DNA from: a virus | Direction: 5' to 3' (one strand) | Length of the DNA stretch: 11,633 nt | Virus genome (UHGV): UHGV-0141986 | Part shown: positions 1,817-11,633 of the stretch, piece by piece | How the letters are laid out: every line of letters begins with the position of its first letter | Numbering within the stretch: position 1 is the stretch's first letter | Made by a program: the position numbers and the translations under genes | Notes under the pieces: model-generated | Told to the model about the DNA's origin: nothing | What the model saw: the letters and a program-made list of their open reading frames with translations, nothing else | The model's database searches: none

Positions 1817-2065
1817 TTCTTCCATTCCGGGACGTTACACTGTTCAGGCACCTTATAAAGCGGGTGCCGGGATTGGCGTCCTGGAAATGTTATCGGCGAT
1901 ATATGACGCGCCAGCGTTTTTTTTATCGTCTGCGTCTGCGCACACCCAAATTATGGTGGGCTGGACGGGGGCACCGAAAGGTGCGCCGGTTTCCGATAAC
2001 GCCGGTTACGCCAACCCCGTTCAGTTCACCACCAGCGAAATTCACTGTTATCGGAGGCTGCCATC

Positions 2066-3855: not shown

Positions 3856-4478
3856 TGAGTAATAAATATTGCCAGGAGCTGGTGGAGCTGCGGAACAAAC
3901 CAGCCCATGAACTGAAGGAAGTGGGCGATCAGTGGCGCACGCCGGATAACATTTTCTGGGGAATTAACACCCTGTTTGGCCCGTTTGTCCTGGATCTGTT
4001 TACTGACGGTGATAACGCCAAATGTACCGCGTATTACACGGCGGAAGACAACGCGCTGGCGCATGACTGGTCAGAACGTCTTGCGGAGCTTAAAGGTGCT
4101 GCCTTTGGTAATCCCCCATACAGCCGCGCCAGTCAGCATGAGGGGCAATACATCACCGGCATGCGTGATAAAGGCGGGCGCTATGTTTTCCTGATCAAAG
4201 CTGCCACCAGCGAAGTGTGGTGGCCGGAAGATGCAGATCATATTGCTTTTATTCGCGGGCGTATTGGTTTTGAACTGCCTGCCTGGTTTATCCCGAAAGA
4301 TGAGAAGCAGGTGCCGACAGGCGCTTTCTTCGCTGGTGCTATTGCTGTTTTCGACAAGACCTGGAAGGGACCGGCAATCAGCTACATCGGGCGCGATGAA
4401 CTTGAGGCATGTGGTGAGGCGTTTCTGGCGCAGGTTCGCCAGCAGGCGGAAAAACTGGTCAGGGAGATGGCGGCATGA
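3855..4478 (+). CDS. Phage DNA N-6-adenine methyltransferase (Dam, phage-type)
   Basis: MSNKYCQELVELRNKPAHELKEVGDQWRTPDNIFWGINTLFGPFVLDLFTDGDNAKCTAYYTAEDNALAHDWSE...AAFGNPPYS carries the NPPY catalytic motif and the N-terminal WxTP signature. Track start 3822 overlaps the upstream gene; ATG 3855 is preferred. Confidence 0.85.
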   Translation: MSNKYCQELVELRNKPAHELKEVGDQWRTPDNIFWGINTLFGPFVLDLFTDGDNAKCTAYYTAEDNALAHDWSERLAELKGAAFGNPPYSRASQHEGQYITGMRDKGGRYVFLIKAATSEVWWPEDADHIAFIRGRIGFELPAWFIPKDEKQVPTGAFFAGAIAVFDKTWKGPAISYIGRDELEACGEAFLAQVRQQAEKLVREMAA

Positions 4479-8568: not shown

Positions 8569-8867
8569 AAAATTCCTTAATACTGATAACTTGGCGCACT
8601 ATACACACGTTCCTGAAGAAAGCTATAGTTTTTTGATGGGGTTGAAGATGGCTGGATGTCTAAAATAAACATTGCTTCATATGTTCAACTATGCGTTAAT
8701 GATTGCGTCGGTTTGAAGAACAGACGATATACGAAGTAGTTTACTAAAGCAGTTCTCATTTCAGGTGTTATTCACTTATTCCTTCTTTGAGTCTCTCCAA
8801 TTAAGTACGAAGTCGTTTCTGTTATACAAGCCATTTATGCCGAAAGGCTCAAGTTAAGGAATGTAGA
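8569..8867. promoter_or_regulatory. Divergent cspF/cspB promoter region and long cspB 5' UTR
   Basis: 299-bp AT-rich intergenic region between divergent csp genes. Long structured 5' UTRs are a known property of cold-shock mRNAs. TAAGGA SD 7 nt before cspB ATG. Individual elements not resolved. Confidence 0.35.
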
Positions 8868-9083
8868 ATGTCAAATAAAATGACTGGTTTAGTAAAATGG
8901 TTTAACGCTGATAAAGGTTTTGGCTTTATTTCTCCTGTTGATGGTAGTAAAGATGTGTTTGTGCATTTTTCTGCGATTCAGAATGATAATTATCGAACCT
9001 TATTTGAAGGTCAAAAGGTTACCTTCTCTGTAGAGAGTGGTGCTAAAGGTCCTGCAGCAGCAAATGTCATAATTACTGATTAA
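8868..9083 (+). CDS. cspB: Cold-shock protein CspB-like (CspA family)
   Basis: [71 protein letters not shown] with RNP1 (KGFGFI) and RNP2 (VFVHF) motifs. Confidence 0.9.
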
Positions 9084-9364
9084 AATTCATAGTTTGTCTG
9101 TATACGATAACGAAGAAGGCTGATGCCTGAGTGGAGATACAGACAGAGTGGTGAATATTGGATCTCTTTAATAAATAGTAAGGAGGTCCAATACATGAAA
9201 CAATGGCCAGCATATTTGGCAATAACTTAATCAGGAAAAGTATGCTAACCATTGTGGTGAAGTGCAGGTTTGCTGCATGAATAGTTTTACAGCAGAAGCT
9301 AACTGCTGGCATAGCAAAACAAAGTGCGTAAGTGGATGACTCCCACAAAAAGTACCACAATATT

Positions 9365-9617: not shown

Positions 9618-9835
9618 AGGCTTTTCCTGTATAAATGGCCGTATACAGTACACTAAATATGAAAACATATCTCGTATTATTATTTAACATATGATTTTCT
9701 TTTAAAATAATTACCCACATTTTTAATGTGTCTGTTTTTTAGCGCCGTTGAGAACAACGTTTGCTATAAAAACTACCCCATAGACTCCGATCTTTTCAAA
9801 CATATTGCACCATCTGTGTACATCGGGGTGAGGAT

Positions 9836-10051
9836 ATGAAATCAATGGATAAGTTAACAACAGGTATCGCCTATGGCACATCGGCTGGTAATGCTGGTTT
9901 CTGGGCATTGCAGTTACTCGATAAAGTAACTCCGTCACAGTGGGCTGCAATCGGTGTGCTGGGTAGTCTGGTATTTGGCTTGCTGACGTACCTGACAAAC
10001 CTTTATTTCAAGATTAAAGAAGACAAGCGTAAGGTTGCACGGGGAGAGTAA
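9836..10051 (+). CDS. Class II holin (phage-21 S-type pinholin) with dual-start motif MKSMDK
   Basis: [71 protein letters not shown]. Two transmembrane segments and a charged C-terminus. Starts at Met1 and Met4 mirror the S21 antiholin/holin pair. GAGG precedes the ATG. Confidence 0.9.
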
Positions 10052-10055
10052 TTCA

Positions 10056-10154
10056 ATGACACAAAACTATGAACTGATTGTGAAAGGGATCCGCAATTTT
10101 GAGAATAAAGTTGCGGTAACTGTAGCTCCTTTTCCTTCTCCGGCAACAAGTTGA
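10056..10154 (+). pseudogene. Truncated ydfR-like gene (33-codon N-terminal fragment)
   Basis: MTQNYELIVKGIRNFENKVAVTVAPFPSPATS-stop. The first ~24 residues match the YdfR N-terminus as I recall it; the sequence then diverges and terminates. GGAG at 10043-10046. Confidence 0.4.
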
Positions 10155-10340
10155 TTAGGGCTACGACTGCTTGCCTGAGTGCGATTAAATCAGCAAAAGT
10201 TTGTTTTGGTAGATTTGTGTAATCCATAGTCACCTCTGTGTTTATCAGATTGACATCCTCCTCCCGCCAGTGCCCATCACTGGTGAGGTAAGATTTAACA
10301 TATCCAGGGATTTGAAGCCGATAAATCCTGATAAATATCC

Positions 10341-11368
<1,028 letters not shown>

Positions 11369-11633
11369 ATTAATATTAAATCGGATTATTTTTAGCGCTG
11401 AATGTGAAATTTAAATAAAAAGGACTCTTCCATGAGTCAAAATCCTTGAAATCTTAAGGGTAAGATAAAAGGTCATTAGACAGAATGACACGTTTTATTA
11501 ATAAATAAAGCTATTGTTTCATTCGTGTGTTTTTCTTTACAAAAGTAATCCTTGCTATGGTTGGTTAATCATGCGTTAACACTGATGCCCCCTCCCAGGA
11601 GCAGGTTCGTGTAAAAACTATGCTTAATAGCAC

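What the first reader, a model, noticed from the sequence alone, without database searches (positions are those of the whole stretch)
10052..10340. Lysis cassette interrupted: truncated ydfR-like gene, antisense ORF with a strong SD, endolysin without an SD
Between holin and endolysin, a ydfR-like ORF stops after 33 codons (10056-10154). The next ~185 bp contain a perfect 6-bp hairpin (CCAGTG-cccat-CACTGG, 10266-10283) and, on the minus strand, GAGGTG followed 3 nt later by ATG at 10227 (MDYTNLPKQTFADLIALRQAVVAL...) running antisense into the holin 3' end. The endolysin ATG at 10341 has no purine-rich SD. This looks like a deletion or rearrangement scar that could impair endolysin expression, or a small antisense gene inserted into the cassette.
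Basis: partly seen in the sequence, partly recalled or inferred. Interest (0 to 1): 0.5.

Follow-up and report, generated by a model that had tools for sequence, protein, structure and literature searches.

The report
Deletion scar in prophage lysis cassette
A 588-base deletion, seen only in this contig, destroyed two accessory genes between the holin and endolysin genes of an E. coli lambdoid prophage and left the lysis genes untouched, which is ordinary prophage decay.

Summary
All four observations are real. The truncated ydfR ORF, the hairpin, the antisense ORF with a strong SD and the SD-less endolysin start are all there; only the hairpin start is off by one base.

The cause is a blunt 588-bp deletion at window 10126|10127. 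Relatives with 100% identical flanks (E. coli 2013C-4282, YDC107) carry two genes here, and so do plaque-forming phages (2H10, PhiR63_1). One is a 183-aa DUF1327/YdfR-family gene. The other is an 86-aa gene on the opposite strand (phrog_2572) with its own SD and terminator.

The deletion removed the 3' parts of both genes. The two 5' stubs now read into each other, giving chimeric ORFs of 32 aa and 74 aa.

The junction is absent from 5,426 complete E. coli genomes and from three contig collections. The window is a single whole SPAdes contig.

The holin, SAR endolysin and Rz/Rz1 genes are intact. The 214 bp upstream of the endolysin are unchanged.

The SD-less endolysin start is native to this gene family. 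In K-12 Qin it overlaps the ydfR stop (ATGA). In viable phages it stands uncoupled.

This is a deletion scar with no sign of impaired endolysin expression. Interest is low.

The parts
9836..10051 (+). Phage-21-type class II holin (pinholin), 71 aa, dual-start motif MKSM; intact
   Evidence: Pfam PF04971 E=1.1e-33. PHROG holin families. 100% identical to essQ of L001.
10056..10154 (+). Truncated DUF1327/YdfR-family gene. 24 native residues (10056-10126, with codon 24 spanning the junction), then 8 foreign codons (PFPSPATS) and a stop.
   Evidence: Identical to the intact 183-aa ORF of L001 up to 10126. The intact relative hits PF07041 at E=9e-43.
10126..10127 (.). Deletion junction. 588 bp (L001 1798-2385) are missing, with no microhomology.
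   Evidence: The exact prefix (297 nt) and suffix (754 nt) matches add up to the 1051-nt query. The junction is absent from 5,426 complete E. coli genomes and from the viral, GTDB and metagenome contig collections.
10003..10227 (-). Chimeric 74-aa antisense ORF. Codons 1-33/34 (10227-10127) are the 5' end of a conserved 86-aa gene (phrog_2572, WP_001306174.1). The rest is antisense of the ydfR 5' end and the holin 3' end.
   Evidence: This exact 74-aa product is on record only for this contig.
10231..10236 (-). Shine-Dalgarno sequence GAGGTG of the antisense gene
   Evidence: -7.1 kcal/mol pairing with the anti-SD. Conserved in L001 and L007.
10228..10340 (.). Head-to-head spacer between the antisense gene and the endolysin, unchanged by the deletion. 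It should hold the antisense gene's promoter.
   Evidence: 100% identical to L001/L003 and 98.6-99.1% to phages 2H10 and PhiR63_1. No sigma-70 consensus match was found. Part of it is conserved next to a different antisense gene in phage Perceval and next to a distant homologue in L013.
10260..10290 (.). Hairpin with core CCAGTG-CCCAT-CACTGG (10267-10283) and an outer CCUC/GAGG stem
   Evidence: Fold. Sequence-level conservation in L007, Perceval and L013, without compensatory changes.
10327..10340 (+). CCTGATAAATATCC, the conserved SD-less translation initiation region of the endolysin
   Evidence: Shared with mEp460, Perceval and 2H10. In K-12 the homologous ATAAATATCTATGA is the ydfR stop/rrrQ start overlap.
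10341..10874 (+). SAR-type endolysin (RrrQ-like), 177 aa, with E35/D44/T50; intact
   Evidence: PF00959 E=2.6e-24. Matches the phage 21 lysozyme (3hde/3hdf) and RrrD (4zpu) at E about 1e-16. 100% identical to WP_001101173.1 of L001.
10871..11368 (+). Rz-like i-spanin (DUF2514); intact
   Evidence: PF10721 E=1.9e-38; phrog_312.
11064..11318 (+). Embedded Rz1-like o-spanin lipoprotein (lipobox LTSC, proline-rich)
   Evidence: Translation. An 84-aa homologue is embedded in the same way in L013.

Best explanation
Window 10052-10340 is what remains of an ~877-bp holin-endolysin spacer after one blunt 588-bp deletion at 10126|10127.

In the undeleted form the spacer holds two accessory genes that converge and overlap tail to tail. 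One is a 183-aa DUF1327/YdfR-family gene on the late-operon strand. The other is an 86-aa gene of unknown function on the opposite strand, with its own SD and a stem-loop plus T-run terminator just past its stop.

The deletion removed ydfR codons 25-183. It also removed codons 35-86 of the antisense gene together with its terminator. The two 5' stubs now run into each other's antisense sequence, giving a 32-aa and a 74-aa chimeric ORF. Neither is expected to make a working protein.

The lysis genes themselves are intact: pinholin, SAR endolysin and Rz/Rz1. The endolysin's upstream region is untouched.

The SD-less endolysin start is inherited. In K-12 Qin-type cassettes it overlaps the ydfR stop codon (ATGA), which would allow translational coupling. 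In cassettes such as mEp460 and 2H10 it stands alone, and those phages still form plaques.

Shown: the deletion, its breakpoints, its uniqueness in the data searched, and the intact lysis genes. Inferred: that the deletion is real rather than an assembly error, and that it is a neutral accessory-gene loss typical of prophage decay, with lysis competence unchanged.
For: - **Breakpoints:** the flanks are 100% identical to E. coli 2013C-4282 and YDC107. The prefix and suffix matches sum exactly to the query length, so the breakpoints are unambiguous.
- **Direction of change:** the missing segment holds the 3' ends of two ORFs whose 5' ends are in the window, so this is a deletion here and not an insertion elsewhere.
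- **Spread of the intact form:** it occurs in 283 of 5,426 complete E. coli genomes and in phages 2H10, PhiR63_1, PhiR5_1 and PhiR12_x.
- **Uniqueness of the junction:** it is absent everywhere else searched. The 74-aa fusion product is on record only for this contig.
- **Antisense gene terminator:** the AAAACGCCGC-N12-GCGGCGTTTT+T-run inverted repeat (I8) lies at L001 2176-2207, inside the deleted segment. Searches show it in L001 and L007.
- **Lysis genes:** all recognised and full length.
- **Endolysin upstream region:** identical to relatives. Its last 14 nt are shared with mEp460, Perceval and 2H10. K-12 shows the ATGA overlap of ydfR and rrrQ.
Against: - The window is a single short-read SPAdes contig, and no reads were available, so the junction cannot be verified directly.
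- A second junction, also found nowhere else, lies exactly 55 nt (one SPAdes k-mer) from the contig end. This raises some doubt about the assembly.
- There is no microhomology at the breakpoint, which is less typical of spontaneous deletions.
- Neutrality for lysis is inferred, not measured. The antisense stub keeps its upstream region but has lost its terminator, so antisense RNA across the holin gene is conceivable.
Confidence: 0.78

Rival explanations
1. Assembly or library artefact. The 588-bp skip comes from chimeric reads or a mis-join in the SPAdes graph, and the real genome carries the intact spacer.
For: The window is one whole contig, NODE_134_length_11633_cov_334.9, seen in one sample only. 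The junction is found nowhere else. A second unique junction lies exactly one k-mer (55 nt) from the contig end. Other short ENA contigs carry odd truncations of the same 86-aa gene.
Against: De Bruijn mis-joins need a repeat of at least k bases at the join. Here the two sides share not a single base, and no repeat links the breakpoints. The junction k-mers must therefore be present in the reads. The contig runs 1.5 kb past the junction at high coverage without a break, which suggests the short path is the dominant one. This last point is inference from how SPAdes works.
Confidence: 0.15
2. The deletion is real and changes lysis. One version, the first reader's, is that it lowers endolysin expression. 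Another is that antisense transcription from the surviving stub, now without a terminator, runs across the holin gene.
For: The endolysin has no SD and is not coupled to an upstream ORF here. The antisense gene's terminator is in the deleted segment. No terminator-like site follows on the minus strand down to 9700.
Against: The endolysin's 214-bp upstream region is unchanged, and it serves viable phages in the same uncoupled, SD-less state. mEp460 shares only the last 14-20 nt of that region. This argues that the elements needed for translation start lie well downstream of the breakpoint. No sigma-70 consensus promoter was found for the antisense stub. Q-modified late transcription is expected to far exceed it (general knowledge of lambdoid late operons).
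Confidence: 0.1
3. The 74-aa antisense ORF, or the 32-aa ydfR stub, is a functional small gene in its present form.
For: A strong SD and an ATG are retained. A gene caller called the ORF.
Against: Only 33-34 of its 74 residues are native, covering helix 1 and the start of helix 2 of a predicted three-helix protein. The remainder is antisense of ydfR and holin coding sequence. The product exists in one contig only. No family matches it.
Confidence: 0.03

Closest known systems
Lysis region of the E. coli K-12 Qin cryptic prophage (essQ-ydfR-rrrQ-rzpQ/rzoQ, flanked by cspF-cspB-ynfU and cspI)
   Same: Same gene order and neighbours: Q, cspF, cspB, ynfU, holin, ydfR, endolysin, Rz. The holin-ydfR 5' segment is 92.8% identical. 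The endolysin start is SD-less in both.
   Different: In K-12, ydfR is 103 aa and its stop overlaps the rrrQ start (ATGA), with no antisense gene. Here ydfR is cut to 24 native residues, a stub of an antisense gene is present, and the endolysin start is uncoupled.
Escherichia phages 2H10 (LR595862/NC_049950) and PhiR63_1 (PV340573), and prophages of E. coli 2013C-4282, YDC107 and CFT073
   Same: 98-100% identical across the holin, endolysin and Rz genes and the spacer ends. Same antisense gene start, SD, hairpin and endolysin upstream region.
   Different: They keep the 588 bp: a full 183-aa DUF1327 gene, the full 86-aa antisense gene and its terminator.
Phage 21 pinholin / SAR-endolysin / spanin lysis system (S21, R21, Rz/Rz1)
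   Same: The holin belongs to the P21 holin S family and has the MKSM dual start. The endolysin matches the R21 structures and has E35/D44/T50 plus an Ala/Ser-rich N-terminal segment. Rz1 is embedded in Rz.
   Different: Only distantly related at sequence level (E about 1e-16 for the endolysin). Extra accessory genes, or their remnants, lie between the holin and the endolysin.
Lambdoid 'morons' (for example lambda bor, encoded antisense to the late operon next to the lysis genes)
   Same: In relatives the 86-aa gene is a small unit antisense to the late operon, with its own SD and terminator. A distant homologue sits downstream of Rz/Rz1, in the bor-like position.
   Different: No promoter could be identified, and the function and fold are unknown. 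In the window the unit is broken.

Membership tests
Phage-21-type pinholin-SAR endolysin-spanin lysis cassette | Class II holin of the P21 S family with a dual-start motif | tested here: met
   PF04971 E=1.1e-33. MKSM at the N-terminus.
Phage-21-type pinholin-SAR endolysin-spanin lysis cassette | Lysozyme-family endolysin with an N-terminal signal-anchor-release segment and the E-D-T catalytic triad | tested here: met
   PF00959. Matches 3hde/3hdf and 4zpu. E35, D44 and T50 and the [17 protein letters not shown] segment were read from the translation. Membrane release itself is not testable here.
Phage-21-type pinholin-SAR endolysin-spanin lysis cassette | Rz i-spanin with an embedded Rz1 lipoprotein o-spanin | tested here: met
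   PF10721 and phrog_312. The embedded ORF has the lipobox LTSC.
DUF1327 / YdfR family | A complete DUF1327 domain (profile of 93 positions) | tested here: not met
   Only 24 native residues remain before the junction. The intact relative covers profile positions 1-92.
phrog_2572 (86-aa antisense protein, WP_001306174.1) | Full-length match to the 86-position profile (three predicted helices) | tested here: not met
   The window product shares residues 1-34 only. The full-length relative matches positions 1-86 at E=1.2e-53. The model has helices at 8-26, 30-48 and 56-74.
Moron (autonomous promoter-gene-terminator unit in a prophage) | Own promoter upstream of the gene | tested here: inconclusive
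   No sigma-70 consensus match in the window or in L001. A conserved upstream block exists.
Moron (autonomous promoter-gene-terminator unit in a prophage) | Own intrinsic terminator downstream of the gene | tested here: not met
   Present in relatives as a 10-bp inverted repeat plus T-run at L001 2176-2207. It is deleted in the window, and no minus-strand terminator-like site lies between 10227 and 9700.
Translationally coupled ydfR-endolysin pair (K-12 Qin type) | The upstream ORF's stop overlaps the endolysin start (ATGA) | tested here: not met
   Met in K-12. In the window the ydfR stub stops at 10154, 186 nt upstream. The only ORF ending at the ATGA has no SD (my reading of the sequence).

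The most novel reading that the evidence does not exclude
The intact form of the antisense gene may be an uncharacterised moron that is practically restricted to Escherichia. It would consist of the 86-aa three-helix protein and a convergent partner ORF. It carries a conserved upstream block, which includes the hairpin and abuts the endolysin start. It is lodged inside the lysis cassette, where it separates the endolysin from ydfR, to which K-12 couples it.

If this unit modulates lysis timing or lysogen fitness, the window would be a natural knock-out of it. That knock-out would also leave an unterminated antisense transcript across the holin gene.
Probability: 0.12. Interest if true: 0.4.

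Novelty: already known. Interest (0 to 1): 0.12.

Why it matters
It matters little biologically. It is one more strain-specific deletion in the accessory part of a well-known lambdoid lysis cassette.

It has three practical uses:
- It shows that the two short ORFs here should be annotated as gene remnants.
- It shows that the SD-less endolysin start is the normal state of this gene family and not damage.
- It points to a conserved but unstudied antisense gene between the holin and endolysin genes in about 5% of complete E. coli genomes.

Tried and rejected
- **Exact junction searches:** a 29-mer across the junction was searched in the viral, GTDB-genome and metagenome contig collections. Nothing was found.
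- **Look-up of the 76-aa GTG-start product:** not on record. The 74-aa ATG-start form identified the source contig.
- **Repeats at the breakpoints:** I searched for direct or inverted repeats that could explain the deletion. None coincide with the breakpoints.
- **Terminator-like hairpin at the junction (10109-10137):** it is flagged by the scan but folds no better than shuffles (z = -0.27). Rejected as a meaningful feature.
- **Upstream ORF coupled to the endolysin ATGA:** the only frame ending there has just GTG/TTG starts and no SD. Rejected.
- **Plus-strand promoter from the perfect TTGACA at 10251-10256:** no acceptable -10 element follows. Rejected.
- **Function of the 86-aa protein:** Pfam, NCBIfam and PADLOC gave nothing. 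PHROGs gave only an unknown-function family. The AlphaFold model (pLDDT 73) had no Foldseek match in PDB or BFVD. HMMER hits to large TPR/CHAT proteins look like repeat or compositional noise.
- **Perceval's antisense protein:** it shows no detectable similarity to the 86-aa protein.
- **Rfam:** no family in 9950-10420.
- **Literature on ydfR/DUF1327:** no functional information found.

Full report
**What the window is**

The 11,633-bp window is one complete SPAdes contig, ena:ERZ652585:NODE_134_length_11633_cov_334.929. It is 98-100% identical to lambdoid prophages of E. coli.

Its right-hand part has the gene order of the K-12 Qin prophage. The order is Q antiterminator, cspF, cspB, ynfU, holin, ydfR, endolysin, then Rz/Rz1.

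**Checking the observation**

- The + strand ORF 10056-10154 has 32 sense codons and a stop.
- The hairpin is CCAGTG(10267-10272)-CCCAT-CACTGG(10278-10283), one base to the right of the reported start. In RNA it extends by a G-U pair and an outer CCUC/GAGG stem.
- On the minus strand, GAGGTG (10236-10231) precedes ATG at 10227 by 3 nt. The ORF runs to 10003 and overlaps the holin 3' end.
- The endolysin ATG at 10341 has no anti-SD pairing in the 22 nt upstream (0 kcal/mol). The holin, ydfR, antisense ORF, Rz and Rz1 starts score -5.6 to -8.4 kcal/mol.

A 6-bp hairpin is expected by chance about 0.4 times in 289 nt (my calculation), so alone it means little.

**What it is**

Megablast of 9830-10880 against 5,426 complete E. 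coli genomes gave full-coverage hits at 100% identity. Every one came in two pieces and spanned 1,639 bp instead of 1,051 bp.

An exact comparison with E. coli 2013C-4282 (L001) shows 297 identical bases up to window 10126 and 754 identical bases from 10127. These add up to exactly the query length. The window therefore lacks L001 1798-2385, which is 588 bp. The join is blunt, with no microhomology. No repeat in the intact sequence coincides with the breakpoints.

In the intact relatives the holin-endolysin spacer holds two genes.
- **A 183-aa ORF on the late strand.** Its N-terminal 112 residues are a DUF1327/YdfR domain (PF07041, E=9e-43; phrog_2091).
- **An 86-aa ORF on the opposite strand** (WP_001306174.1; phrog_2572, E=1.2e-53).

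The two ORFs converge and overlap by 53 nt.

Just past the stop of the 86-aa gene lies a 10-bp perfect inverted repeat followed by a T-run. On the gene's own strand it reads AAAACGCCGC-N12-GCGGCGTTTTTTTT. It is conserved in L007 and is a plausible intrinsic terminator.

The deletion removed ydfR codons 25-183, codons 35-86 of the antisense gene, and that terminator. Both stubs in the window are 5' ends whose 3' ends lie in the missing segment. The event is therefore a deletion here, not an insertion in the relatives.

The stubs read into each other's antisense sequence. The products are MTQNYELIVKGIRNFENKVAVTVA+PFPSPATS, and MDYTNL...EKEKE followed by 40 foreign residues.

**How widespread each form is**

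The intact spacer is present at 80% coverage or more in 283 of 5,426 complete genomes. It is also in phage genomes 2H10, PhiR63_1, PhiR5_1 and the PhiR12 series, whose records name E. coli K-12, C or ECOR13 as hosts.

The deletion junction was found nowhere else:
- No complete E. coli genome covers a 120-bp junction probe in one piece.
- A 29-mer across it is absent from the viral, GTDB-genome and metagenome contig collections.
- The 74-aa fusion product is on record for this contig only.

**Is the deletion real?**

I could not inspect reads. A de Bruijn mis-join needs a shared repeat, and the two sides share no base. The junction k-mers must therefore have been in the reads. The contig also continues 1.5 kb past the junction. 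This favours a real deletion in the sequenced DNA.

Two points call for caution. The contig is a singleton. A second junction, also unique, skips 1,525 bp holding cspI, ymcF, ynfN and gnsB. That junction lies exactly 55 nt from the contig end, the length of a common SPAdes k-mer. I put an artefact at about 15%.

**Consequences for lysis**

The lysis genes are all full length and identical to those of the relatives:
- The holin is a P21-type class II holin with the MKSM dual start.
- The endolysin matches the phage 21 lysozyme structures 3hde/3hdf and DLP12 RrrD 4zpu. It has E35/D44/T50 and an Ala/Ser-rich N-terminal segment.
- Rz carries an embedded Rz1 lipoprotein.

The 219 nt up to and into the endolysin start are 100% identical to L001 and L003. 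They are 98.6-99.1% identical to phages 2H10 and PhiR63_1.

The last 14 nt before the ATG, CCTGATAAATATCC, are also shared with mEp460 and Perceval, whose spacers are otherwise different.

In K-12 Qin the homologous sequence, ATAAATATCTATGA, is the 3' end of ydfR, and its TGA overlaps the rrrQ ATG. This gives a likely historical reason for the missing SD, namely translational coupling. In mEp460-type and 2H10-type cassettes the coupling partner ends 55 to about 320 nt upstream, and these are complete phage genomes with named propagation hosts.

The SD-less start is thus the native state, and the deletion, 214 nt further upstream, does not touch it. In the predicted fold the AU-rich stretch around the ATG is unpaired. 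This fits SD-independent initiation, but that is inference.

**The antisense gene**

Its family is narrow. All close members are from E. coli. Only one locus turned up among GTDB species representatives. Two remote small homologues of 89 and 93 aa exist.

The ratio of non-synonymous to synonymous change is about 0.5, based on only 13 differences. That is compatible with a coding gene but is weak evidence.

AlphaFold predicts three helices at moderate confidence (pLDDT 73). No fold match was found in PDB or BFVD. Pfam, NCBIfam and PADLOC gave no hit.

In locus L013 the 93-aa homologue lies antisense just downstream of Rz/Rz1. It is tail to tail with a 73-aa ORF that weakly resembles the C-terminal extension of the 183-aa YdfR protein. 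Its upstream region retains the CCTGATAAATAT block and the hairpin-like sequence. This suggests a mobile convergent two-gene unit of the moron kind.

Phage Perceval carries an unrelated antisense ORF behind the same upstream block.

No sigma-70 consensus promoter was detected. The hairpin shows sequence conservation but no compensatory changes, so its role is open. It could be a DNA site, a 5' UTR stem, or nothing. No Rfam family matches the region.

**Verdict**

The finding is a correctly observed deletion scar. It inactivated two accessory genes of unknown function and left a complete pinholin, SAR endolysin and spanin set.

Nothing indicates impaired endolysin expression, and the antisense ORF is a remnant and not a new gene. 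This is ordinary prophage decay in a known kind of cassette. The only mildly interesting by-product is the uncharacterised antisense gene unit seen in the intact relatives.

Noticed in passing
window 11579-11633: The last 55 nt of the contig match relatives 1,525 bp further downstream (L003 14229-14283), skipping cspI, ymcF, ynfN and gnsB. This junction is also absent from all 5,426 complete E. coli genomes. It lies exactly one common SPAdes k-mer (55) from the contig end. It is either a second real deletion or a graph-end effect.
   Followed up: partly
window ~4160-4166: The window has a 30-bp in-frame gap in the phage Dam methyltransferase gene relative to YDC107. The gap is flanked by a 7-bp direct repeat, CATGCGT, the classic slipped-strand pattern.
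   Followed up: partly
window 1848-1924, 1949-2036 and 8707-9146: Rfam gathering-score matches to isrK Hfq-binding RNA (61.7 bits), C4 antisense RNA (82.8 bits) and the cspA thermoregulator upstream of and over cspB (156.7 bits).
   Followed up: no
L009 2811 (E. coli K-12 derivative J53, Qin prophage): The ydfR stop codon overlaps the rrrQ start codon (ctATGA). This suggests translational coupling as the reason this endolysin family has no SD.
   Followed up: partly
L006 1139-1510 (phage Perceval): The 370-bp gap between ydfR and the endolysin has no annotated gene. It holds a different antisense ORF of about 79 aa (MQKEVFINITADCSS...), behind the same conserved upstream block and a similar hairpin. 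BLASTP finds no similarity to the 86-aa protein.
   Followed up: partly
L013 2369-2945 (IMG/VR UViG_2713897197_000004): A 93-aa homologue of the antisense protein sits downstream of Rz/Rz1, tail to tail with a 73-aa ORF. Its upstream region keeps the CCTGATAAATAT block although no endolysin gene is adjacent. The unit seems to move as a module.
   Followed up: partly
window 10109-10137: The deletion junction creates a terminator-like weak hairpin followed by CCTTTTCCTT on the + strand. It folds no better than shuffled sequence (z = -0.27).
   Followed up: yes
L001 1727-2062: RefSeq marks the ydfR-family gene of the intact relatives as a partial pseudogene. The ORF is in fact open for 183 codons (1727-2278) and matches phrog_2091 end to end. 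It looks like a DUF1327 domain fused to a C-terminal extension, not a broken gene.
   Followed up: partly
proteins P0012, P0013, P0014, P0017 (short ENA/NCBI contigs): Several other truncated or fused versions of the 86-aa protein exist on contigs of 0.5-2.4 kb. The cause could be contig-end effects or further rearrangements at this locus.
   Followed up: no
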